Assembly: GCF_029232205.1 (NCBI RefSeq)
Contig: NZ_CP107255.1
Span: 360,001 to 392,000 of the forward strand
DNA length: 32,000 nt
Source: Candidatus Saccharimonadota bacterium
GTDB taxonomy: Archaea > Nanohalarchaeota > Nanosalinia > Nanosalinales > Nanosalinaceae
Reading direction: 5' to 3'
The notes beneath the pieces were generated by a model that made no database searches, had not been told where the DNA came from, and saw only the letters and a list, made by a program, of their open reading frames with translations. Made by a program: the position numbers and the translations under genes. Position 1 is the first letter of the stretch. The number at the start of each line of letters is the position of its first letter. Below, in pieces: positions 1,091-28,019 of this stretch.

Positions 1091-2770
1091 ATGCTAACCG
1101 CATTAAGCAATTCGGCGTTAAGCAATTATTTTCTTGATCCGGCCTGGGTACTGGCGCTAGCAGCCCTAATACCGCTGATCATATTCTACCTGGTAAAGCC
1201 CAAGCCTGATGAAAAGATGATGCCCTCAATCCGGTTCTTCATGAAGGACAGGAAGGAAGGCAGGATAAAACAGGCCATATCAAAAATTCTGCAAAACCTC
1301 ATGCTGATATTCCATATACTCTTTGTCATAGCAGTGGTAGCGGCAGTAGCAAATCCTTTCATCAATGGCCCTTCAACTGCGGATAGGTCCGTAGTTGTAA
1401 TTGATAACTCTGCAAGTATGGAAGGATCTCTAGAAGATGCCAAGAACTTTGCAGTAGATAGGCTTGGAGGAACAAATACTGTAATCCTAGTAAACGATGA
1501 CGTAAAGGTTATAGCCAATGAAGCAACCAGGGCCTCAGCAAGAAGAGCAATTAATAATGTAGAACTGGAGGAAACTCCTACAGATCTCGCAAGAGCCCTG
1601 CAGATATCAAGAAACTATCGGGGCCAGCTAGTTCTTGCGAGCGACACAGATCACACGGCAAGCTCTAGAGAAACAACATCTGTAATACAGAATATCAAGG
1701 CCAATAGAGAAGTATACGTAATGGATGCAAAGACATCCAACTCCTGGGGATTCGCAGACCTAAACGTCAAAGAATCGTGGGTGGAAGTCAAAAACTATGA
1801 CGACAGTCAGCAACAGGTAAACATAGAGCTTGATGGCACAGCTGAGAGCGTTACACTCCAACCTGGAGAGGCCCGAAGAGTAGACATCGATCTAGAAAAA
1901 GGAGAGAACACAGTCTCGCTGCCAGAAGATGGAATGGCTGCAGACAACACTCTCTCAGTATACAGGCCTGAACAGTCAACACTTGAAGTAGCAGTAATAG
2001 CAGATAGTGAAAACAGATACCTGATGAAGGCCTTTGAACTAATTAACCAGACTGATCCAGAGTTCTACCAGTCTCCTATAGAGAGCTTTCCAAGTGCAGA
2101 TGTCTATGTGATCGGACAGTCGGAGAATACGCTATCACAGACCGTGAACAGCGTGGAAAACCGTGTACAGAATGGTGCAACAGCAGTAGTAATGGCAAAT
2201 GAAGGTCTCGAACCAGAATACTACGATCATCTGCCGGTAGAAAATATAGGAGAGCGGACAGAGGCAAATGTAGAGTTCAGAAAACCTAGGAAAATCAACA
2301 TAGGAAACACAGAAGTATACAATCTCACAGTTACGGGAAGAGGCCTTTCCGATCCGCAGAACGCGCTAGTTCACGGAACTCACGGCCAGGGAGATATCCT
2401 AGTCTACAATATTAACGATGAAGACTTCAGAAGAGACTTCCTTTACCCGGTTTTCTGGCGAAACGTAGTAGATGCCTACTCCGAAGTAAAAGATGCAGAA
2501 GATCTAAATCTTGAGACAGGCCAGACAGTAAGAGCTGACGGAAAGCCAGTTGAACTAAACAGAACAGGCTTCCACGAACTAGGAGGCCAGAAATACACAG
2601 CAAACCTGCTAAACGATGATGAATCCTCTACAGAATCATCTACAATAACTTCAAGCGAATCAGCAACATCAACAGTGCCAAAAAGCATTCAGAATCTGGC
2701 AGCATTACTGGTTCTCCTGCTAGCACTTACAGAAGCAGGATACCTCTACTACATAGGTGATATGCAATGA
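1091..2770 (+). CDS. BatA-like membrane protein with vWA domain
   Basis: The N-terminus LALAALIPLIIFYLVKPKP...PSIRFF resembles the BatA-type N-terminal double-TM region. vWA MIDAS residues are present: DNSAS (nt 1403-1417), a downstream TPTD and SDTD. C-terminal TM segment: AALLVLLLALTEAGYLYY. Confidence 0.75.
   Translation: MLTALSNSALSNYFLDPAWVLALAALIPLIIFYLVKPKPDEKMMPSIRFFMKDRKEGRIKQAISKILQNLMLIFHILFVIAVVAAVANPFINGPSTADRSVVVIDNSASMEGSLEDAKNFAVDRLGGTNTVILVNDDVKVIANEATRASARRAINNVELEETPTDLARALQISRNYRGQLVLASDTDHTASSRETTSVIQNIKANREVYVMDAKTSNSWGFADLNVKESWVEVKNYDDSQQQVNIELDGTAESVTLQPGEARRVDIDLEKGENTVSLPEDGMAADNTLSVYRPEQSTLEVAVIADSENRYLMKAFELINQTDPEFYQSPIESFPSADVYVIGQSENTLSQTVNSVENRVQNGATAVVMANEGLEPEYYDHLPVENIGERTEANVEFRKPRKINIGNTEVYNLTVTGRGLSDPQNALVHGTHGQGDILVYNINDEDFRRDFLYPVFWRNVVDAYSEVKDAEDLNLETGQTVRADGKPVELNRTGFHELGGQKYTANLLNDDESSTESSTITSSESATSTVPKSIQNLAALLVLLLALTEAGYLYYIGDMQ
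2756..2761 (+). promoter_or_regulatory. Shine-Dalgarno GGTGAT, 5 nt upstream of ATG 2767
   Basis: Complementary to the archaeal 16S 3' end (..GAUCACC..). It lies inside the upstream gene, next to an ATGA stop/start overlap, which fits translational coupling. Confidence 0.55.
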
Positions 2771-5079
2771 TAACCTTCGAGCACTCCCTAGGACTGATAC
2801 TGGTTTTAATCAGCTTTACAGGCCTCTACGCTGCATACAGGGCTGAGGAAATATACGGAGAGATACTGGGCCTGACAAGATTTCTACTACTGTTTTTACT
2901 GGCTCTAGCGGTTGCAGGCCCTCAGATACAGATGGCGCAGGAAAGAATGAGAACTCCAGAAGTCAATATTCTGGAGGATAACTCCCGGTCCACACAGTTC
3001 ATGCAGGATGACAAGGTAAGTTTCCAGGAAATCCAGACAAACAGAAATATTATTGCATCAGGAAACAACTCAGAAATGAAGAACAGCATCCTCAACAGTA
3101 TTCAACAGGATGGAGCATACCTTATCGTCTCCGATTTACAGACAGACGAGGACATGAATGAGGTAATACGGAAGGCCAATAGAAACAATGCGAGTATAAG
3201 CTTCCTGAAACCGGAAATGACATCCGAACACGCAATAACAATAGAAGGCCCGGAGCAAACAGTACCCGGCGCCAACAACCAGTACACCGTAAAACTCAGC
3301 TCCACAAAAGGAGGATCAGTACCGGTAGAAGTCAGAGTAGATGGAAACCAGATACACAGCGGCCGAATAACATCAACATACAACTTTACAAGAAAATTTG
3401 GCTCAAAAGGCCACCACAAAATACAGGCCTCAATCGACGTCAACGACCAGGAATCCTCCAACAATGCATACTACAAAACAGTAGAAGTAACCAAAAAACC
3501 TGAAATACTGGTGATAGGCCAGAGCTCCAGCCTTGGAACAGATCTAAGCGAATACTTCAGACTGGAGTACACAAGCTCAGTACCAGAAGACATGTCAGAC
3601 TACGACGCAGTACTACTCAAAGAAGACGTACCGGAAGAAAACCTGATAGAATACGTTTCACAGGGAGGAGGCCTAGTCTACACAGGAGATCACCAGAATT
3701 CATATGATGTTCTGCCAGTAAAGGAAGCTGATGATAGTGAAGAGAGTAGTAAGGCTGCAAGAGTAATAATGGCGGTAGATACCTCCGCTAGCTTCTACAG
3801 TGAGAGAAGCAGGACCAAGGAGAAGGCTAGATATGCTGCAAAATACTTTGTTTCTGCATTGTATCGTCAAAGCGTTGGTTCAAAAGTAGCAGTCATTAAT
3901 TATGGAGGTACTGTTCAAGGTTCGAGTTACGTCCCGAGAATAATGCGTAATCCAGGAGAACCAGCATTCCTTAGTATGGTCAATAGTGAGGATAAAAACA
4001 GAGTCTTTTCGAGGGTAGATTCTCTTGATGGAATTGGTGGAGCGATACAAAGTTATGGTCTCAGAGCTTCTAAAGAGCTTGCTGAGAAGGAGCAATCTAA
4101 ATCAACTATTGTGATGATAACTGATGGTCGATTTGAAGACGTAGAGAAATTCAACACGCAAAGAACTCAAGATGATATTAAAATTGAATCTGAACAGGAT
4201 AAACAGAACTTCCGTGATATTGCTATGAGTTTGGATGATAGTAAAACCTCTCTTTGTTTCCTAACGATAGGAGGTGGAGCTGATACAGCCTTCTTGAATG
4301 GGTTCGTTGATAGGACCAATATAGTATCTTTTGAAGATATGAGAAATCAAGGACGCTTTTGCGATCTTCTAGGGGGAGGAGGTAATTCTGGAGCTGGTAG
4401 AGTCTATGCTGTAAATAATCAACATTTTATCTCCAGAGGAGGTATAAATCCTGACTTGGCAGTGGCAGGGACTTATAACGCTCGGTTAAGGCCTTCAGGG
4501 AATTTAATACTGGCAACTGGAGAAAATAAGCCTGTTCTTGCTACATGGAGATATGGGTTAGGAAGGGTTGCGGCATTTACAACTAGAGATTCTAATTTAG
4601 GGGATATGATGCGTGGTGACCCTTCTTCTGTTGTCAGAACATTTTCCTGGTCCGTAGGAGAGATAGATAGAGAGGGCCGCTGGATAAAAGTTTCTTCAAC
4701 GAGAGTTGGAGGCCAGAAACCTGAAGTTGAGGCATCCTACAGTATTGAAGGCCTTACACGTGATGCGGATGGAACTTACTCGAAGACTCTGGATCCTGAA
4801 GGCCTTGGCTTCCATGAATTCAACGGCGTGCCTTACAGCTACAACTATAACTCTGAAATAGAGAATATAGGGTATGATAGCAGGATTGAAAGAATTGCAT
4901 CGGAGACAGGGGGCAAAGTGTACGAGCCATCTCAAAAAGGCCAAATTGTCGAGGATCTTCAGACTTTCAGTGATGAGCGAGTCGTCAGGAGAACTTCTCT
5001 AACGCCTTACCTGCTGATAGCAGCACTGATTGTATTCCTGGGAGAGGTAGGGTTCAGAAAGATGAAGGGCAGAAAGTAG
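2767..5079 (+). CDS. Large membrane-anchored vWA-domain protein (Bat-like, with GATase1-like/DUF1355-like segments)
   Basis: N-terminal TM helices; vWA with DTSAS (nt 3778-3792) and MITDG. EILVIGQSS...GGGLVYTGD and ATWRYGLGRVAAFTT resemble the amidotransferase-like modules of BatA/BatB-type proteins. C-terminal TM plus basic tail: LLIAALIVFLGEVGFRKMKGRK. Confidence 0.7.
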   Translation: MITFEHSLGLILVLISFTGLYAAYRAEEIYGEILGLTRFLLLFLLALAVAGPQIQMAQERMRTPEVNILEDNSRSTQFMQDDKVSFQEIQTNRNIIASGNNSEMKNSILNSIQQDGAYLIVSDLQTDEDMNEVIRKANRNNASISFLKPEMTSEHAITIEGPEQTVPGANNQYTVKLSSTKGGSVPVEVRVDGNQIHSGRITSTYNFTRKFGSKGHHKIQASIDVNDQESSNNAYYKTVEVTKKPEILVIGQSSSLGTDLSEYFRLEYTSSVPEDMSDYDAVLLKEDVPEENLIEYVSQGGGLVYTGDHQNSYDVLPVKEADDSEESSKAARVIMAVDTSASFYSERSRTKEKARYAAKYFVSALYRQSVGSKVAVINYGGTVQGSSYVPRIMRNPGEPAFLSMVNSEDKNRVFSRVDSLDGIGGAIQSYGLRASKELAEKEQSKSTIVMITDGRFEDVEKFNTQRTQDDIKIESEQDKQNFRDIAMSLDDSKTSLCFLTIGGGADTAFLNGFVDRTNIVSFEDMRNQGRFCDLLGGGGNSGAGRVYAVNNQHFISRGGINPDLAVAGTYNARLRPSGNLILATGENKPVLATWRYGLGRVAAFTTRDSNLGDMMRGDPSSVVRTFSWSVGEIDREGRWIKVSSTRVGGQKPEVEASYSIEGLTRDADGTYSKTLDPEGLGFHEFNGVPYSYNYNSEIENIGYDSRIERIASETGGKVYEPSQKGQIVEDLQTFSDERVVRRTSLTPYLLIAALIVFLGEVGFRKMKGRK

Positions 5080-16545: not shown

Positions 16546-17694
16546 ATGGCCCGTGAATGGTTTCAGAACTCGGTGGTTTACCAGATATTTATCGATAGGT
16601 TTGCAGGTTTTGAGGACGGCAGCAACTGGCACAATCCCGAGTATGTAGGTGGCGATATCAGAGGAATAATTGAAAGACTTGACTACATCGAGGAACTGGG
16701 AGTAGATGTAATCTGGATCTCGCCTTTCTACCAGAACGAGGCCTACCACGGCTATCATGTAACTGATTTCTTCAGCGTGGATGAAAACTTTGGAACTGAG
16801 GAGGATCTCAAGGAACTTATTGAGGAAGTACATGACAGAGATATGAAGATTGTTGCGGATTTTGTACCAAATCACTGTTCTGTGAACCATCCTTACTTCG
16901 TGGAGGCCCGTAACAATCCGGGTTCCGAGTTTGTCAACTGGTTCTGTTTTGATGACTGGCCTGACCACTACAAATCTTTCCTGGATTTTGACTCTGTTCT
17001 TGCAAAAATCGATCTGGATTACGAGCCAGCAAGAAACCATGTGATTGCAGCGGCAAAGAAATGGCTGGAACTAGGCCTTGATGGCTACAGGCTTGACCAT
17101 GTTATAGGGCCTTCTGATGAGTTCTGGCAGGTTTTCGAGAAAGAGATTCACGACGAGTTTGAAGATGCAGTTTTGATAGGTGAGGCTGCATGGGATGATT
17201 CCGTAACCGAAAATTCCGAGACAGTAAATATGGAGAGAGGAATTCTTGGCAAGGTTGCATCACAGGAATACACTCAGAAAAACTATGAAGGCCTTCTTGA
17301 TGGAGTACTTGACTTCAAGTTCAGAGATCTGCTTCTAGGTACTCTGAACTCTTCGATAATGCCTGATATCGCGATAAGGCCTCTATTGAAAGCTCACTAC
17401 GCATTTTTCTCCAGTGATTTCATGCTGACAGGTTTCATGGATAACCACGATGTTAACAGAGCTCTCTACGAATTAGGCCAGGATAAGGAGAAGCTGAAGA
17501 AAGGCCTTGAAATCATGCTTTCCATAGATCAGCCCTGCGTTATTTACTATGGTACTGAGATCGGTATGACTCAGCATCATTCTATAACTGAGTTTCCTTC
17601 TTACGGCGATTTACAGGCCCGTCAGCCTATGCAGTGGAATGATATGGATGGCGAGCTTCTCGAATACTTCCGTGAGAAGATCAATAATCGGTGA
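16546..17694 (+). CDS. GH13 alpha-amylase-family glycoside hydrolase (cytoplasmic, short form)
   Basis: All four GH13 regions are present: DFVPNH, GYRLDHV (nucleophile Asp), LIGEA (acid/base Glu), FMDNHD. No signal peptide. At 382 aa it seems to lack a separate C-terminal domain. Confidence 0.9.
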   Translation: MAREWFQNSVVYQIFIDRFAGFEDGSNWHNPEYVGGDIRGIIERLDYIEELGVDVIWISPFYQNEAYHGYHVTDFFSVDENFGTEEDLKELIEEVHDRDMKIVADFVPNHCSVNHPYFVEARNNPGSEFVNWFCFDDWPDHYKSFLDFDSVLAKIDLDYEPARNHVIAAAKKWLELGLDGYRLDHVIGPSDEFWQVFEKEIHDEFEDAVLIGEAAWDDSVTENSETVNMERGILGKVASQEYTQKNYEGLLDGVLDFKFRDLLLGTLNSSIMPDIAIRPLLKAHYAFFSSDFMLTGFMDNHDVNRALYELGQDKEKLKKGLEIMLSIDQPCVIYYGTEIGMTQHHSITEFPSYGDLQARQPMQWNDMDGELLEYFREKINNR

Positions 17695-22902: not shown

Positions 22903-25614
22903 ATGAAGAAAGACATATTTTTGCTTATGGGCTTGAAACTTGGTAAAATCTTTACAGTTTTTATTCTGGCCATACTTCTGGTTTCAACAGGTGCTGCCTA
23001 CACTAACTGGGACCCTGGGGAGCCCAGTAATACAGGAGGAAATGAGGAGTGTGCTGAGATGTTCACTACTAGCTATTGGAATGATCAGCCCTGTGATGAG
23101 AATCTGCCTGCGATCTGTGAGGCGTCTGATGGTACTTACAGTACTACCGGGAGTATGTCTTGGATGGCTGCGCGAGATGTCTGTGAAAGTAGAGGGGAGC
23201 ACCTGGTAGTTATTAATGATCAGTCTGAGCAGAATTATCTTCAGGCTAACTATGGCTATGGGTGGATAGGTTATCGTCAATCTAGTACTGGTTCTGAGCC
23301 TGGAGGTGGATGGGGGTGGAGTGCAGATCTGGAGTCTGAGGTAGTAAGTAGTAGCTCCAGTGTTCAGGATGTTGATTCTGATGGGGATTATGTTAGGGGT
23401 CGTCCGGTAAAAACTACGTTCACCTATGAAGTCCAGAATCCATACAAACCTATTGATACTGCTTTTGCACTTGATGGTTCTGGGAGTATGGGCAATTCTC
23501 GCTACGATGTGGCCGATGCTACAAAGGATTATATAGATGGAGCCAATACAGGTCAAGGAGATACTATTGCAGTATCAGAACTTGGAGAACAGCTTCAAAG
23601 TTTGACCACTGATAAATCTGATGCTAAAAGTGCTGCGGATCGTTACTGGGATGAAAGTCGGAGTTCGTGTATCGGCTGCGGTATTTCTAAGGCTCATGAT
23701 CATCTTAAGGAGGGCAATAATCCTATCCAGGTGATTGTAGTTCTTGCTGATGCACAGGGAGGTTACAGCGGTCAGGCCGATGATGCAAGAGATGATGGAG
23801 TAGAAGTCCATGGGATCATGTATCCTGGGGCCGATATCAACAACTTCGAGAAAGTTACTGATTCTACCTGTGAAATGAATTCTGATGAGAACAGTGACGG
23901 AGATAACTGCTGGTACGGATCTTCAGGCACGATAGATGAGGTCTATGATTCTATTCAGGAAGAAGTTCAGGCGGAAGCAACTGCTGATTTGAATATGGTT
24001 ATGCCGGATTATACATATACTCAAGATAGCTTCGATAGTCTTGAAAATCATGCTGATGGTGAAAACTATATCAGAGAAGATATAGATGCCAGCAGCGGAA
24101 CACATACAGAGACCTTCACATGGCGCCCACTTACTGATGGTAGCGGTAAGGTGGTGAAAACAGGAAGTTCATATATAGATTTTCGATCAGATGGGAGTAC
24201 CACGACCTATAATTTTCCATCCTCACATACTGAAGATATCTACTATGTAGATCTTAATGTATCTGACCACTCTCTTCTAAGGCGGAACGGCATGATAACT
24301 GTAAATCTCACGCTCCGGAATAAAGGCAATATAGAGTCTAAAACAAGGCCGTTACATCTGACAGATGAGGATAACAATATTTTATCGCGTCAGATAGATC
24401 CTATACCTGCAGGAGGAAAACACTATGAAGTATTCCGGGTAGCTGAAAATAATCTAACTTTCAGAGATGCACAGCGCATAACAGCTCATATAGATCCTAA
24501 TACTGGAGGTTTCTGGTCTACAGCACCTCTAGGAGAGGGTGAGGCCCTAGAACCTGATGAAACCAATAACGATATGCCTATAGGTTATCCACCGCTTCTT
24601 TCATCTACTTCGCCATCAACAGTTAACTGGGATGATAACTTCCGATTCAGCCTGAATTTTGATCACTACTATCCTGATCAGGTACAGGGAAATTATACTG
24701 TATTAGAAGATGGCAATAAAATTAGAGATGAGGCTTCCTACAGCAAACCTGCAGAGGGGACACTGAGAACTAACCAGATAGATAATGATGAGTCCAGAAT
24801 ATACTACAATATTACGAGCAAGATAAGAGGGCCGCAGGGAGCTTTATCTGTTTACAATCATACTTTCTACGTCAGTAATCCGAGGCCTGAGATCTATGCT
24901 GCTGAGCCGAAGAACTTGAACAGTGTGTATCAGAATCCTGTGCAGTTGAGGGCCTTTGTAGATGATGAGAATAATGTTGAGAATTCTAATGGCCTTAATG
25001 TTAGTATCTATAATCAGGAGACTGGAAATCTTCTGAAGGAGGTTGAGGGTGTAGCTCCGAGGACACCTGTATCTTATTCCTGGTCTGAGGCTGATGAGGC
25101 GGGTAAGACTTATCGCTGGAATGTGACTGTTTCTGATGACTGGGATACTGTTTCCGAGGTTTTCAGGTTTGTGAAAGGTTCAAGAGTGAGTTACAGGACT
25201 GAGACTGAGAGCAATTACAGTTACTCTGGTGTCGTTACTTCTTCGGGAGGTCAGGGAGCTTTCAGGTACAGTGTACGGAATCGTCTTGAATTCAACAAAA
25301 ATAATATGCGGACTACACTTTCAGGAGTAGATGCCCGGTTTGAGAGTACTGGAACAGGTACCAAGAGCTATGCGTTGCCTAAAGAATCGTCAAAAACCTT
25401 CAATATAATAGTTAATCCTGGAAATGGGCTTGAAGGCCAACAATATCTTACGGTCACCACTACTAACGAAGACCTAGGCATTAATAACACCGATAAGATT
25501 CCTATATTTATCCGCAGTGATGCTAAAAGAAGTAGAGGGGTTCCGGGCCTATCAATATTGAATATTTTGTTTATGATTCTGGCCTCTACCCTTTATTTCG
25601 CTGGTTCTCACTGA
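22903..25614 (+). CDS. Secreted surface protein: signal peptide, permuted C-type-lectin-like domain, vWA, CARDB-like domain, beta-rich repeats, VPGL+TM C-terminal tail
   Basis: Signal/TM FTVFILAILLVSTGAAY; CTLD motifs (see the separate feature); vWA DGSGS (23473-23487); CARDB-like LTLRNKGN...IPAGG...EPDETNND; C-terminal RSRGVPGLSILNILFMILASTLYFAGSH. An alternative start at ATG 22927 (MGLKLGK...) is possible. Confidence 0.8.
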   Translation: MKKDIFLLMGLKLGKIFTVFILAILLVSTGAAYTNWDPGEPSNTGGNEECAEMFTTSYWNDQPCDENLPAICEASDGTYSTTGSMSWMAARDVCESRGEHLVVINDQSEQNYLQANYGYGWIGYRQSSTGSEPGGGWGWSADLESEVVSSSSSVQDVDSDGDYVRGRPVKTTFTYEVQNPYKPIDTAFALDGSGSMGNSRYDVADATKDYIDGANTGQGDTIAVSELGEQLQSLTTDKSDAKSAADRYWDESRSSCIGCGISKAHDHLKEGNNPIQVIVVLADAQGGYSGQADDARDDGVEVHGIMYPGADINNFEKVTDSTCEMNSDENSDGDNCWYGSSGTIDEVYDSIQEEVQAEATADLNMVMPDYTYTQDSFDSLENHADGENYIREDIDASSGTHTETFTWRPLTDGSGKVVKTGSSYIDFRSDGSTTTYNFPSSHTEDIYYVDLNVSDHSLLRRNGMITVNLTLRNKGNIESKTRPLHLTDEDNNILSRQIDPIPAGGKHYEVFRVAENNLTFRDAQRITAHIDPNTGGFWSTAPLGEGEALEPDETNNDMPIGYPPLLSSTSPSTVNWDDNFRFSLNFDHYYPDQVQGNYTVLEDGNKIRDEASYSKPAEGTLRTNQIDNDESRIYYNITSKIRGPQGALSVYNHTFYVSNPRPEIYAAEPKNLNSVYQNPVQLRAFVDDENNVENSNGLNVSIYNQETGNLLKEVEGVAPRTPVSYSWSEADEAGKTYRWNVTVSDDWDTVSEVFRFVKGSRVSYRTETESNYSYSGVVTSSGGQGAFRYSVRNRLEFNKNNMRTTLSGVDARFESTGTGTKSYALPKESSKTFNIIVNPGNGLEGQQYLTVTTTNEDLGINNTDKIPIFIRSDAKRSRGVPGLSILNILFMILASTLYFAGSH
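22999..23328 (+). other. C-type lectin-like domain with permuted segment order (aa 33-142 of the 903-aa protein)
   Basis: YTNWDPGEPSNTGGNEECAEMFTTSYWNDQPCDENLPAICE (canonical C-terminal half: EPN-like EPS, WND, 3 Cys) comes before MSWMAARDVCESRGEHLVVINDQSEQNYLQ...GWIGYRQ...GGGWGWSAD (canonical N-terminal half: W-A-C-G-HL-I-E-FL-WIG-WxW). Confidence 0.65.
24871..24984 (+). repeat. Near-identical nucleotide tract shared with 27276-27389 (copy 1)
   Basis: Hand alignment gives 108 of 114 nt identical, including synonymous sites. The immediately upstream coding sequence of the two genes is clearly diverged. Confidence 0.85.
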
Positions 25615-25661: not shown

Positions 25662-28019
25662 ATGAAGAAAGGCCTGCTGGCTTTTATTGTTGTTCTGTAT
25701 CTTGCTCTTGCTTCAGGTGCAAATACGTATGCAAATGACTTGAGCTCTTCTGCAGTGGATGTTGATGGGGATGGCGAGTTTGTGATGGGTAGAGAAGTTG
25801 TTACCAGTTTTAATTATACTATAAACAATCCTTATCGGCCTATTGATACGGCGATTGTGATCGACGAGTCTGGCAGTATGAGCGGTGTGATTGGCTCGGC
25901 TAAACAGGGCGCCAAAGATTATGTGGATGCTACTAATACTTCTTCCGGCGATAGAAATGCTGTGGTGGAGTTTGAAAGTGATGCAGATATTCTTGAATCT
26001 CTTACAACCAGTAAACAGGATGCTAAGGATGCTATAGATACTATAAATGATGGTGGAGGAACGGATCTTCCTGCGGGCGTTTCGAAAGGCCACAGCGCGT
26101 TAACTAGTGCTAGCGATCCTAATCCTATCCAGGTAATGATTGTGCTTGCAGATGGAGGTGGTGGAGATCCCGGTACTGAGGCCGATGATGCCAGGGATGA
26201 TGGTATTGAGGTGCATGGGATAATGTATGGTTCGGGGGCCAGTACCAGTGAGTTTGAAAGCATGACAGATTCCTCTGATTGCAGTAAGAACTCCAATGAA
26301 AACAGTGATGGTGACTCTTGCTGGTATGCTGAGACTGGATCGATAACCAGTGTCTACGAACAGATTAGAGAACAGGTAGATCAGGACGTGCAGGGAGAGC
26401 TCGGTGTAGTACTTCCTGATCATGCCTATGTTGATTCAAGCTACGATAGCTCTACTGATCTTTCTGGCCCAAATACACGGTATAAGCTAACAGATATCCC
26501 AACAGATGATGGGGAGTACAAAAGAAGTTTCAGCTGGTATCCAACAACCAAGGGCTATGAAACTATAAAGACGGGAGAATCCTACCTTAAGCTAGATGTA
26601 CAAGGTTCAACAGACTATTACAACTATACTTCATCTTTCGATAGAGATATCAAGTATGTGGACTTCAGTATTCAGGACACAAATATTGAAAGAGAGGAAA
26701 CAGAGATCAATGTAAACTATACTGTCGCCAATGATGGAAATATTGCTTCTAGGCCAAGAGATTTGAAAATTATCGATGGTGAAGGCCATATAATTAGTCG
26801 TAATGTAGACCCCATCCCTGCGGGAGGCACTTTCTTCGATAACTTTACTGTAGGCGCTAACCACAATGTTTTCCAGGATTCTAATAGGATTACGGCCTTT
26901 ATGGACTACCTTGGTTTCTTCAACTCAATTCCTCCTGGAGAAGGAGGCACGCTAGAACCAAATGAGAACAACAACGACCAGTTAATGGGCTATCCTCCCC
27001 GGTTGATAAGCACTTCACCGTCAACTGTTGAGTGGAACGATACTTTCAGGTTTAGCCTGGATTTCGGCCATTATTATGCAGATCAGGTTCAGGGAAAGTA
27101 CTCGGTGTACGAAAACGGTACTTTGATCAGAGATAACGTAAGTTTCTCCAAGCCAGCAGAGGGAACTGTACAGACTAATGATATAGATAACGATAATTCC
27201 ACGATTTACTACAATATCACCAGCTATCTGGAAGGTCCTAGCGGCGCCACAGCTATCTACAGAGACAGTTATTATGTCAGTAATCCGAGGCCTGAGATCT
27301 ATGCTGCTGAGCCGAAGAATTTGAACAGTGTGTATGAGTCTCCTGTGCAGTTAAGGGCCTTTGTAGATGATGAAAATAATGTTGAGAATCCGAATAATCT
27401 GAATGTGACTGTCCGTGATTATGAGACAGGCCGTCTTCTTCTTTCAAAGAAAAATGTCTTGCCTCGTTCTTCTGTAAGTTATGATTGGGTTTCTGCAGAT
27501 CAGGATGGCAAGACTTATCGCTGGAATGTGACTGTTGAGGATCGATGGCATCAGGTCTCTGAAGTTTTCAGGTTCAAGAAGTCAACAAGATTCAGCTACA
27601 GAACTGAGACTGAGAGCAATTACAGTTACTCTGGAGTTGTGGCCTCTTCGGGGGGTCAGGGAGATTTCAGGTTTACTGTCAGTAATCCTCTTGATTTTGA
27701 CAAGGACGACATGCAGACAAGCTTGTCAGGAGTGGATGCCAAGTTTGAAGGCACGGGCACGAACACGAAAAGTTATTCTCTCCCGAATGGAACTACCAGG
27801 ACTTTCAATATTATTGTCTCGCCGAACTCTTCTCAAACCGGCCAGCAATACCTGCAGATTACAACCACGAATCAGGATTTAAACATCAATAATACAGATA
27901 ATATTCCCATCTACATTAGAAAGGATGCGAAGAGAAGTAGAGGAGTTCCAGGCCTTGGAATGCTTCAGCTAATGGTGCTGCTGGCTTCCTCGGCGTTAAT
28001 ATTTTTCAGAAGAATTTAA
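25662..28019 (+). CDS. Secreted surface protein, paralog of 22903-25614 without the lectin module: signal peptide, vWA, CARDB-like, beta-rich repeats, VPGL+TM tail
   Basis: MKKGLLAFIVVLYLALASGANTYA signal; vWA DESGS...GGGTD...LADGG (complete MIDAS); NYTVANDGN...IPAGG...EPNENNND; colinear with the upstream paralog to the C-terminus RSRGVPGLGMLQLMVLLASSALIFFRRI. Confidence 0.8.
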   Translation: MKKGLLAFIVVLYLALASGANTYANDLSSSAVDVDGDGEFVMGREVVTSFNYTINNPYRPIDTAIVIDESGSMSGVIGSAKQGAKDYVDATNTSSGDRNAVVEFESDADILESLTTSKQDAKDAIDTINDGGGTDLPAGVSKGHSALTSASDPNPIQVMIVLADGGGGDPGTEADDARDDGIEVHGIMYGSGASTSEFESMTDSSDCSKNSNENSDGDSCWYAETGSITSVYEQIREQVDQDVQGELGVVLPDHAYVDSSYDSSTDLSGPNTRYKLTDIPTDDGEYKRSFSWYPTTKGYETIKTGESYLKLDVQGSTDYYNYTSSFDRDIKYVDFSIQDTNIEREETEINVNYTVANDGNIASRPRDLKIIDGEGHIISRNVDPIPAGGTFFDNFTVGANHNVFQDSNRITAFMDYLGFFNSIPPGEGGTLEPNENNNDQLMGYPPRLISTSPSTVEWNDTFRFSLDFGHYYADQVQGKYSVYENGTLIRDNVSFSKPAEGTVQTNDIDNDNSTIYYNITSYLEGPSGATAIYRDSYYVSNPRPEIYAAEPKNLNSVYESPVQLRAFVDDENNVENPNNLNVTVRDYETGRLLLSKKNVLPRSSVSYDWVSADQDGKTYRWNVTVEDRWHQVSEVFRFKKSTRFSYRTETESNYSYSGVVASSGGQGDFRFTVSNPLDFDKDDMQTSLSGVDAKFEGTGTNTKSYSLPNGTTRTFNIIVSPNSSQTGQQYLQITTTNQDLNINNTDNIPIYIRKDAKRSRGVPGLGMLQLMVLLASSALIFFRRI
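27276..27389 (+). repeat. Near-identical nucleotide tract shared with 24871-24984 (copy 2)
   Basis: Same alignment as copy 1. Further exact matches: 25105-25131 = 27510-27536 (27 nt) and 25198-25229 = 27603-27634 (32 nt). Confidence 0.85.

What the first reader, a model, noticed from the sequence alone, without database searches (positions are those of the whole stretch)
22999..23328. Circularly permuted C-type lectin-like domain
Canonical CTLDs run W-x-A-x3-C-x3-G-x-HL-x-I ... E-x2-FL ... WIG ... WxW-DG ... Y-x-NW ... EPN ... E-C ... WND ... C ... C-E. Here the order is inverted. Right after the signal peptide comes AYTNWDPGEPSNTGGNEECAEMFTTSYWNDQPCDENLPAICE (the canonical C-terminal half). 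It is then linked by ASDGTYSTTGS to MSWMAARDVCESRGEHLVVINDQSEQNYLQANYGYGWIGYRQSSTGSEPGGGWGWSAD (the canonical N-terminal half). The new termini (..WGWSAD / AYTNW..) fall exactly where the canonical chain is continuous (WxWxDG...Y.NW). The new linker joins the native N- and C-termini, which are adjacent in CTLD structures. All four core cysteines are present (C1 in RDVC; C2 EEC; C3 QPC; C4 AIC), as are the Ca2+/sugar-site motifs EPS (an EPN variant) and WND. This is the signature of a duplication-and-truncation circular permutation. CTLDs are rare in archaea, and I know of no described permuted one.
Basis: partly seen in the sequence, partly recalled or inferred. Interest (0 to 1): 0.75.

Follow-up and report, generated by a model that had tools for sequence, protein, structure and literature searches.

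The report
Circularly permuted C-type lectin domain
A surface protein of a tiny salt-loving archaeon that lives attached to another archaeon carries a sugar-binding "C-type lectin" module whose two halves are in swapped order, and the same swapped module recurs under purifying selection in related nanohaloarchaea, so it looks like the first natural circular permutant of this well-known fold.

Summary
Residues 33-142 of a 903-aa ORF (22903..25614, +) match the C-type lectin domain (CTLD) in two pieces in swapped order. The canonical C-terminal half comes first and the N-terminal half second. Re-joined in canonical order, the sequence gives one end-to-end Pfam Lectin_C match (profile 2-106/107). 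A family profile then gives one hhalign alignment (E 5.5e-42) instead of two.

It is not a one-off. At least eight other protein clusters carry the same C-then-N unit, at 43-55% identity. The named ones are Ca. Nanosalina and Ca. Nanohalobium. The unit has the same boundaries in different domain architectures. All four Cys, WIG and WND are invariant, and dN/dS is 0.04. Every complete bacterial or Methanosarcinales CTLD mapped was in canonical order.

In this genome the module sits between the signal peptide and the vWA body. The syntenic orthologues and a tandem paralogue lack it. NCBI's gene model starts at M196 and misses it.

The 3D fold is not verified. AlphaFold was confident only for the core, Foldseek gave no hits, and no permutation-aware aligner was available. 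The likely role, Ca2+-dependent glycan binding on a host-adhesion protein, is inferred. I rate it a new variant of a known kind.

The parts
22903..25614 (+). Complete gene for a 903-aa secreted, membrane-anchored protein. Order of parts: signal peptide, permuted CTLD, Ser-rich linker, vWA, beta-sandwich region, C-terminal VPG plus hydrophobic anchor.
   Evidence: ORF. Pfam Lectin_C, VWA and VWA_2 hits, plus weak CARDB. Orthologues and the NCBI model P0001.
22903..22998 (+). Signal peptide (residues 1-32, MKKDIFLLMGLKLGKIFTVFILAILLVSTGAA). The likely cleavage after GAA would leave Y33 of YTNW as the first residue of the mature protein.
   Evidence: Read directly from the sequence. The signal peptides of the orthologues align here. 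The same signal-peptide-then-YTNW junction is seen in P0128, L001/L002 and P0058. The cleavage site is inferred from the -3/-1 small-residue rule.
22999..23121 (+). First part of the permuted domain, which is the canonical C-terminal half (Y33-E73). It holds Y-x-N-W, EPS (40-42), E48, Cys50 (C2), WND (59-61), Cys64 (C3) and AIC72E (C4, strand beta5).
   Evidence: Pfam profile positions 67-106/107. Aligns to langerin 89-128. hhalign query 2-45 to template 71-114.
23122..23133 (+). Closure turn A74-S-D-G77. It joins what are the C- and N-termini of a canonical CTLD (strand beta5 into strand beta1).
   Evidence: Family consensus CE-x-x-(D/N)G-x-Y-x-TT. AF2 places strands at domain residues 40-43 and 49-51 with block pLDDT of about 90.
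23134..23328 (+). Second part of the permuted domain, which is the canonical N-terminal half (T78-D142). It holds beta1 TYSTT, alpha1 with Cys94 (C1), HLVVIN, alpha2, WIGY and GGGWGW.
   Evidence: Aligns to langerin 22-77. hhalign query 51-113 to template 8-68. AF2 helices at domain residues 57-66 and 77-87.
23329..23367 (+). Ser-rich linker (LESEVVSSSSSVQ) between the lectin module and the body shared with the orthologues.
   Evidence: Alignment A1 shows that conservation with the orthologues resumes at DVDSDGDYVRGR.
23458..23862 (+). von Willebrand factor A domain (residues 186-320) with the D-G-S-G-S start of a MIDAS motif.
   Evidence: Pfam VWA 27.5 bits (cut-off 23.8) and VWA_2 29.6 bits (cut-off 27). 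The DxSxS motif is read from the sequence.
25540..25611 (+). C-terminal VPGL motif followed by a hydrophobic helix. This is a putative membrane anchor or sorting signal.
   Evidence: P881 and G882 are invariant in A1. The same ending occurs in P0063, P0072, P0089, P0128 and P0139. NCBIfam found no PGF-CTERM hit.
25662..28019 (+). Tandem paralogue (785 aa, 55% identical) with a signal peptide directly followed by DVDGDGEFVMGR and the vWA domain. It has no lectin module and serves as a natural comparison without the insert.
   Evidence: A six-frame HMM scan finds only one permuted CTLD in the window.

Best explanation
Residues 33-142 are a true circular permutant of the C-type lectin domain (pCTLD). 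The native chain ends are closed by a short (D/N)G turn that leads strand beta5 straight into strand beta1. New ends are opened inside the long loop region, between W-x-W and Y-x-N-W.

The unit is an autonomous, selected module of Nanohaloarchaeota surface proteins. It most likely arose from a tandem CTLD array read half a domain out of register, which is the duplication-and-truncation route. In Ca. Nanohalovita haloferacivicina it was grafted between the signal peptide and the vWA body of one of two tandem paralogous cell-surface proteins.

Shown here: the swapped order, the family conservation, the purifying selection, the insertion relative to orthologues and paralogue, and the restriction of the permuted order to nanohaloarchaea among the complete reading frames sampled.

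Inferred: that it adopts the CTLD fold as a monomer. Also inferred: that its retained site-2 ligands (E40, S42 in place of the Asn of EPN, E48, N60, D61) bind Ca2+ and a Man/Glc/GlcNAc-type sugar, and that together with the MIDAS-bearing vWA domain it helps the ectosymbiont attach to the glycosylated S-layer of its Haloferax host.
For: Swapped halves.

The un-permuted sequence gives one full-length match: Pfam profile 2-106/107, 70.3 bits; PDB CTLDs in a single stretch; hhalign E 5.5e-42 over 104 columns.

Family: an exhaustive phmmer search found P0063, P0072, P0089, P0128, P0136 and P0139, each with one collinear stretch covering the whole permuted query. Half-domain mapping gives the architecture C-then-N only for these, and C-N-C-N for P0029 and P0058. 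Pfam confirms that profile 2-62 lies after profile 62-106 in each. The named members are Ca. Nanosalina and Ca. Nanohalobium.

Conservation: 26 columns are invariant, including 4 Cys, E48, WND, W-x-G and the last Trp.

Controls: in 80 genome loci only the two nanohaloarchaeal ones are stand-alone C-then-N. In 80 metagenome loci only L082-L085 are.

Selection: dN/dS is 0.04 in the module between L001 and L002.

Insertion: orthologues P0002-P0006 lack it. The locus is syntenic in CP046106. The tandem paralogue lacks it.

AF2 with the family alignment: the core (domain residues 30-94) has block pLDDT 74-90, and the order of elements is beta3/beta4, beta5, beta1, alpha1, alpha2, beta2.

Host and lifestyle: the organism is an ectosymbiont of Haloferax lucentense, and lectin-like surface proteins have been proposed as attachment factors in nanohaloarchaea (PMC10266531; PMC7443923).
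Against: Foldseek searches of the AF2 model against PDB and BFVD gave no significant hit, and no CTLD among the top 50. Both chain ends of the model, which are the two halves of the long loop region that would build the Ca2+/sugar site, have pLDDT below 50. The single-sequence model was poor.

The window protein has EPS where the family consensus has EPN. The auxiliary Ca2+ site was not examined.

The NCBI gene model (708 aa, start at M196) excludes the module. No expression or binding data exist. The origin from a tandem array is an inference from architecture, not a reconstructed history.
Confidence: 0.75

Rival explanations
1. The two half-domains do not fold on themselves. Instead they complement each other between molecules, or between neighbouring units. 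The opened long loop region would act as a swapped arm, as in loop-swapped snake-venom C-type lectin dimers (that comparison is from my own knowledge). The functional unit would then be a dimer or daisy-chain rather than a monomeric permuted domain.
For: AF2 leaves both halves of the long loop region unmodelled (pLDDT below 50). In the tandem forms P0058 and P0029 the end of one unit runs directly into the start of the next and restores the canonical W-x-W ... Y-x-N-W continuity.
Against: Single C-then-N units with identical boundaries occur alone in at least seven different proteins. The short conserved (D/N)G turn between beta5 and beta1 is modelled with high confidence as a hairpin. Low pLDDT is expected from a 9-sequence alignment.
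Confidence: 0.13
2. It is a non-functional remnant. A DNA fragment spanning the junction of two repeats of a foreign tandem CTLD gene was inserted by chance. The two half-domains are an unstructured or decaying spacer.
For: The module is absent from all syntenic orthologues and from the paralogue. Its GC content (49.7%) is higher than the window mean (44.9%, top 6% of 336-nt windows). The closest non-nanohaloarchaeal relatives are bacterial tandem arrays such as P0043.
Against: The same permuted unit is conserved at 43-55% identity across several nanohaloarchaeal genera and architectures, with all fold-defining residues invariant. dN/dS is 0.04 between two lineages.
Confidence: 0.06
3. It is an annotation artefact. 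The real protein starts at M196 as in the NCBI model, and the lectin-like region is not translated.
For: NCBI's model P0001 is 708 aa and starts at M196.
Against: M196 lies inside the DGSGSM MIDAS motif and would remove about 40 residues that are conserved in every orthologue, along with the signal peptide. The ORF is open from 22903 and starts with a typical signal peptide, as do the orthologues and the paralogue. The same signal-peptide-then-YTNW arrangement is seen in independent assemblies.
Confidence: 0.03
4. It is a C-type-lectin-fold variable protein diversified by a diversity-generating retroelement, as reported for Ca. Nanohalobium.
For: DGR targets with a CLec fold are described in a nanohaloarchaeon (PMC7443923).
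Against: [quoted passage not shown] No template-repeat copy of the CTLD DNA exists in the 32-kb window (best secondary blastn match is 20 nt). No reverse transcriptase was seen among the ORFs scanned.
Confidence: 0.02

Closest known systems
Canonical C-type lectin (carbohydrate-recognition) domain, Pfam PF00059 Lectin_C, e.g. langerin, mannose-binding protein, DC-SIGN, and bacterial tandem CTLD arrays
   Same: Both halves are homologous at high significance. It has four Cys in the positions of the C1-C4 and C2-C3 disulfides, the WIG(L/Y) and WND motifs, an EPN-type triplet (EPS here, EPN in the family) and the Glu equivalent to langerin E293. The long-loop motif 'YQPxGxxEPxGGWxW' is shared with canonical proteins of unnamed source recovered in the same search, P0124 and P0132.
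   Different: The chain order is circularly permuted: beta3-beta4-beta5 come first, then beta1-alpha1-alpha2-beta2. The native termini are fused by a 4-residue turn. The new termini lie in the long loop region next to the presumed Ca2+/sugar site instead of at the opposite pole. About 3-7 residues of the loop after W-x-W are missing. Members so far come only from named or labelled nanohaloarchaea or from unlabelled metagenome contigs.
Other naturally circularly permuted carbohydrate-binding modules (Ca2+-dependent CBM families linked by permutation, Montanier et al. 2010, cited in PMC4444583; concanavalin A from my own knowledge)
   Same: A sugar-binding fold is preserved while the chain order is rotated. 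Duplication followed by truncation is the usual proposed route.
   Different: These are unrelated beta-sandwich folds. No such case was found for the C-type lectin fold in the literature searched.
Loop-swapped C-type lectin-like dimers of snake venoms and segment-swapped members of the SCOP C-type lectin-like superfamily (collagen IV NC1, PMC3779223)
   Same: They show that the long loop region of the fold can open and be exchanged without loss of the core.
   Different: Those keep canonical chain order and swap between chains or subdomains. Here the chain order itself is changed within one polypeptide.
Nanohaloarchaeal and DPANN lectin-like surface proteins (LamG/ConA-like, PKD) and DGR CLec-fold variable proteins (PMC10266531, PMC7443923)
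   Same: They are secreted or anchored, strain-specific surface proteins proposed to mediate attachment to the haloarchaeal host.
   Different: They have different folds or subclasses (LamG, or FGE-type CLec). The papers read here do not mention a Lectin_C-type domain, permuted or not.

Membership tests
C-type lectin domain (Pfam PF00059 / CTLD superfamily) | Significant match to the Lectin_C profile above the gathering score | tested here: met
   60.8 bits against a cut-off of 22.6 for the whole protein. 64.3 bits for the domain alone.
C-type lectin domain (Pfam PF00059 / CTLD superfamily) | Canonical collinear order beta1-alpha1-alpha2-beta2-long loop-beta3-beta4-beta5 along the chain | tested here: not met
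   Profile positions 67-106 precede positions 2-62. A single full-length match appears only after rearrangement.
C-type lectin domain (Pfam PF00059 / CTLD superfamily) | Four core cysteines (C1-C4 and C2-C3 disulfides) and the WIGL and WND motifs | tested here: met
   C94, C50, C64, C72, WIGY and WND are present and invariant in 9 family members. Disulfide formation itself was not tested.
C-type lectin domain (Pfam PF00059 / CTLD superfamily) | Ca2+ site-2 ligands: E and N of EPN/QPD, a Glu, and N and D of WND | tested here: inconclusive
   By alignment to langerin, E40, E48, N60 and D61 are conserved and S42 replaces Asn. The family consensus is EPN. Metal binding cannot be tested here.
C-type lectin domain (Pfam PF00059 / CTLD superfamily) | Three-dimensional CTLD fold | tested here: inconclusive
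C-type lectin domain (Pfam PF00059 / CTLD superfamily) | Ca2+-dependent carbohydrate binding | not testable with these tools
   Needs recombinant protein and a glycan array in high salt.
Circular permutant (duplication-and-truncation type) | Two segments homologous to complementary parts of one domain in swapped order, which become one end-to-end alignment when rotated | tested here: met
   hhalign with native order gives two alignments (query 51-113 to template 8-68, and query 2-45 to template 71-114). The rotated order gives one alignment of 104 columns, E 5.5e-42.
Circular permutant (duplication-and-truncation type) | Existence of tandem-repeat relatives from which the permuted unit can be excised | tested here: met
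   Tandem permuted P0058 (signal peptide, then C-N-C-N) and P0029 in nanohaloarchaea. Bacterial canonical arrays with 2-10 residue linkers, e.g. P0043 at 43% identity across a repeat junction. The direction of evolution is inferred.
DGR variable protein with CLec fold | A template repeat near-identical to the variable region, and a reverse transcriptase nearby | tested here: not met
   No repeat of 22981-23360 occurs in the window. No reverse transcriptase was seen among the ORFs scanned. The rest of the genome was not seen.
vWA (MIDAS) surface protein | VWA profile match above threshold and a DxSxS motif | tested here: met
   VWA 27.5 bits against 23.8, and VWA_2 29.6 bits against 27. The D-G-S-G-S motif is at residues 190-194.

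The most novel reading that the evidence does not exclude
The permuted C-type lectin module is a host-glycan recognition device specific to Nanohaloarchaeota. Moving the chain ends into the long loop region puts the Ca2+/sugar site at the very N-terminus of the mature surface protein, or lets neighbouring units exchange loop halves. That would create a binding geometry or oligomeric state that canonical CTLDs cannot adopt. Gaining the module on one of two paralogous vWA adhesins would then contribute to recognition of Haloferax S-layer glycans.
Probability: 0.2. Interest if true: 0.8.

Novelty: new variant of a known kind. Interest (0 to 1): 0.6.

Why it matters
The C-type lectin domain is one of the most studied glycan-recognition folds. 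A natural, conserved circular permutant would show that its "double-loop" architecture tolerates closing the outer loop and opening the ligand-binding inner loop. That is useful for protein engineering, for example new attachment points next to the binding site, and for domain-annotation methods, which currently split such domains into two fragments.

Biologically, it points to a concrete, testable candidate for how a cultivated DPANN ectosymbiont recognises its haloarchaeal host. The genome supplies a built-in comparison, because a paralogue and the orthologues lack the module. It also corrects a truncated public gene model that hides the domain.

Tried and rejected
- **Word-index homologue search with the domain alone.** It found nothing. 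With the family alignment it returned only short canonical CTLDs and none of the long permuted proteins. It was therefore of no use for naming family members. The exhaustive HMMER search and the cluster look-up were needed.
- **Single-sequence AF2.** The model was poor (pLDDT 48).
- **DGR hypothesis.** No template repeat was found.
- **Recent foreign origin judged from composition.** The GC shift is only mild (49.7% against 44.9%, top 6% of windows) and is not decisive.
- **PGF-CTERM or other NCBIfam assignment of the C-terminal VPG anchor.** No hit.
- **First genome scan with the 9-sequence alignment.** It worked with a 4-sequence alignment.
Full report
**What is there**

The finding lies at the start of a 903-aa ORF, 22903..25614 on the + strand. 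Its best database match is the 'vWFA domain containing protein' of Candidatus Nanohalovita haloferacivicina (100% identity). That public model is only 708 aa long and begins at M196. This organism is a cultivated nanohaloarchaeal (DPANN) ectosymbiont of Haloferax lucentense (PMC10266531).

The protein begins with a typical signal peptide (residues 1-32). Y33 corresponds to nt 22999 and D142 to nt 23328, so the coordinates and the sequence are correct.

**Check of the observation**

- Pfam Lectin_C matches well above its gathering score (60.8 bits against 22.6), but in two stretches.
- Against solved structures, domain residues 6-43 align to langerin chain positions 89-128, which is the C-terminal half with EPN, Glu, WND and the last two Cys. 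Residues 55-112 align to langerin 22-77, which is the N-terminal half with alpha1, alpha2, WIG and W-x-W.
- No second C-terminal half follows. After WGWSAD comes a Ser-rich linker and then a vWA domain.
- The inverted order is therefore real, with per-stretch E-values of 1e-9 to 1e-12.

**Test of the permutation**

I rearranged the sequence into canonical order, N-half followed by C-half.

- Pfam then gives one stretch covering profile positions 2-106 of 107 (70.3 bits, E 2.7e-19).
- PDB CTLDs match in one stretch, for example langerin 22-128, DEC-205 203-312 and the PLA2 receptor 227-335. Only a gap of about 3 residues appears at the artificial junction.
- At the profile level, I aligned the family of nine permuted domains (A2) against 81 canonical CTLDs. 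In native order this gives two non-overlapping alignments: query 51-113 to template 8-68 (E 6e-22), and query 2-45 to template 71-114 (E 6e-20). After rotation it gives a single 104-column alignment with probability 100% and E 5.5e-42.
- This is the textbook signature of circular permutation.

**The module is a family, not an accident**

An exhaustive phmmer search of 1.84 billion representative proteins gave 5089 hits. Most of the best were long tandem CTLD arrays, which match across repeat junctions.

Six representatives have exactly one collinear stretch covering the whole permuted query, at 45-55% identity: P0063, P0072, P0089, P0128, P0136 and P0139. Mapping the two halves separately gives the architecture C-then-N for these six only. 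It gives C-N-C-N for P0029 and P0058. Pfam confirms that profile 2-62 lies after profile 62-106 in each.

The two members that carry source names are from Ca. Nanosalina and Ca. Nanohalobium. All are acidic, and those with a complete C-terminus (P0063, P0072, P0089, P0128, P0139) end in the same VPG-plus-hydrophobic anchor as the window protein.

The module sits in different contexts:
- directly after a signal peptide (window, P0128, L001/L002, P0058, all starting at Y-T-N-W);
- internal, between other repeats (P0063, P0089);
- near the C-terminus of a 2372-aa GEVED/vWA giant (P0136).

Identical boundaries in shuffled architectures are what an autonomous folding unit would show.

Twenty-six columns are invariant across the nine sequences. 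They include all four Cys, E48, W-N-D, W-x-G, the beta1 Y-x-T-T and the last Trp. Between two nanohaloarchaeal MAGs the module shows 15 synonymous and 3 non-synonymous differences, giving dN/dS of 0.04.

**Controls**

I mapped half-domain order in 80 loci from species-representative genomes. Only the two Candidatus Nanohaloarchaea MAGs are stand-alone C-then-N. All complete bacterial reading frames, and one from Methanosarcinales, are N-then-C or tandem N-C-N-C. The one bacterial exception (L005) reads C-N-C-N but runs off the start of the locus held, so its first half-domain may simply be cut off.

In 80 metagenome loci, only four are permuted: L082-L085. Three of these are the contigs of P0063, P0139 and P0058. 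The permuted order is thus specific to this lineage in the data sampled.

**How it got into this gene**

Five orthologues from other nanohaloarchaea (34-58% identity, 774-796 aa) have a signal peptide followed directly by the conserved D-V-D-x-D-G...vWA body. The roughly 110-residue lectin module is a clean insertion between the two.

The locus is syntenic in genome CP046106: Met-tRNA synthetase, HAD hydrolase, the vWA protein, then VIT1 (one search compared).

The window also holds a tandem paralogue, 25662..28019 (785 aa, 55% identical), which lacks the module. No other copy exists in the window.

The module's GC content is somewhat high (49.7% against 44.9%), which is suggestive but not decisive.

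The closest relatives outside nanohaloarchaea are bacterial tandem arrays such as P0043, from a deltaproteobacterial peptidase. It has three canonical CTLDs with 2-10 residue linkers. The canonical proteins P0124 and P0132, of unnamed source, share the characteristic 'YQPxGxxEPxGGWxW' loop. In them the sequence continues '...GGGWSW-ISGEPTF-YTYWNGGEPNN'. This is exactly the point at which the permuted family is cut.

Together with the tandem permuted forms P0058 and P0029, this fits an origin from a tandem array read half a unit out of register. That remains an inference.

**Structure**

The closure is short. AIC72E is followed by A-S-D-G and then T-Y-S-T-T. The family consensus is CE-x-x-(D/N)G-x-Y-x-TT.

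In canonical CTLDs beta5 and beta1 are antiparallel neighbours (established knowledge of the fold), so a hairpin is plausible. AlphaFold2 with the 9-sequence alignment gives mean pLDDT 63.5 and pTM 0.61. It is confident (block means 74-90) for domain residues 30-94. It places strands at 21-29, 40-43 and 49-51, helices at 57-66 and 77-87, and a strand at 91-92. That is the CTLD element set in permuted order.

**Likely function (inferred)**

By alignment to langerin, four of the five Ca2+ site-2 ligands are kept: E40, E48, N60 and D61. S42 replaces the Asn of EPN. The family consensus is EPN. EPN-type sites favour Man, Glc, GlcNAc or Fuc, and an EPS variant is known in DCIR (both points from my own knowledge).

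The permutation places the chain ends beside this site rather than at the opposite pole.

The rest of the protein is a MIDAS-type vWA domain, a beta-sandwich region and a C-terminal anchor. That is an adhesin-like layout.

The organism lives attached to Haloferax, whose S-layer is glycosylated. Lectin-like surface proteins are the proposed attachment factors in nanohaloarchaea (PMC10266531, PMC7443923). The most likely role is therefore Ca2+-dependent glycan recognition during host contact. I put this functional step at roughly 40-50%.

**Rivals**

- Loop-swapped oligomerisation instead of a monomeric permuted fold cannot be excluded (about 0.13).
- A decaying insertion remnant is contradicted by family conservation and by dN/dS.
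- The NCBI start at M196 would cut the MIDAS motif and remove conserved residues and the signal peptide.
- A DGR target is unlikely: there is no template repeat, and known DGR targets belong to a different CLec subclass.

**Novelty**

Full-text searches found no report of a circularly permuted C-type lectin domain and no Lectin_C-type domain described in nanohaloarchaea. Permutation is known in other lectin and CBM folds. Segment or loop swapping is known in the CTLD superfamily.

I therefore class this as a new variant of a known kind. It is a small nanohaloarchaeal family of permuted CTLDs, hidden in this genome by a truncated gene model.

Noticed in passing
window 22903-23490 (protein residues 1-195): The public NCBI gene model (P0001, 708 aa) starts at M196, inside the DGSGSM MIDAS motif. 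It omits the signal peptide, the lectin module and about 40 residues conserved in all orthologues, so the start is almost certainly mis-called. The full-length protein is therefore absent from the protein databases searched.
   Followed up: yes
window 25662-28019 (+): A tandem paralogue of the vWA surface protein (785 aa, 55% identical, 56% to orthologue P0002) without the lectin module. The related genome CP046106 has only one copy at this locus (L081).
   Followed up: yes
window 25540-25611; also the C-termini of P0002-P0006, P0063, P0072, P0089, P0128, P0139: A conserved C-terminal 'VPG(L/I)' motif followed by a hydrophobic helix. It resembles a PGF-CTERM/archaeosortase-type sorting signal but is not recognised by NCBIfam. 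It may be a nanohaloarchaeal variant.
   Followed up: partly
P0043 (deltaproteobacterial trypsin-like peptidase; L003 1966-3825): This protein has three canonical CTLDs in tandem with linkers as short as 2 residues ('CEF-GD-YEV'). Strand beta5 of one repeat runs straight into beta1 of the next. Such arrays could themselves fold in the permuted register.
   Followed up: no
P0063 and P0089 (L082 1460-4612); P0128: An unannotated domain of about 150 aa is repeated ('GF(R/T)PDY(I/V)EF...QQI(E/D)S...NSDSTN.HR...') and flanks or follows the permuted lectin module in several nanohaloarchaeal surface proteins. It has no Pfam match.
   Followed up: no
window 1091-5079 (+): A BatA-like/DUF7408/DUF7407 protein with a vWA domain (559 aa) is followed by a 770-aa vWA protein. 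This is a second pair of vWA genes in the same window.
   Followed up: no
window 16546-17694 (+): A GH13 alpha-amylase gene. It is probably the GH13 enzyme reported as present only in strain BNXNv (PMC10266531), which is consistent with the organism assignment.
   Followed up: no
window 22993-23328: The lectin module has GC of 49.7% (GC3 42%) against 42.7% (GC3 35.6%) for the rest of the gene and 44.9% for the window. This is compatible with a foreign or recent origin but lies within the top 6% of window-wide variation.
   Followed up: partly
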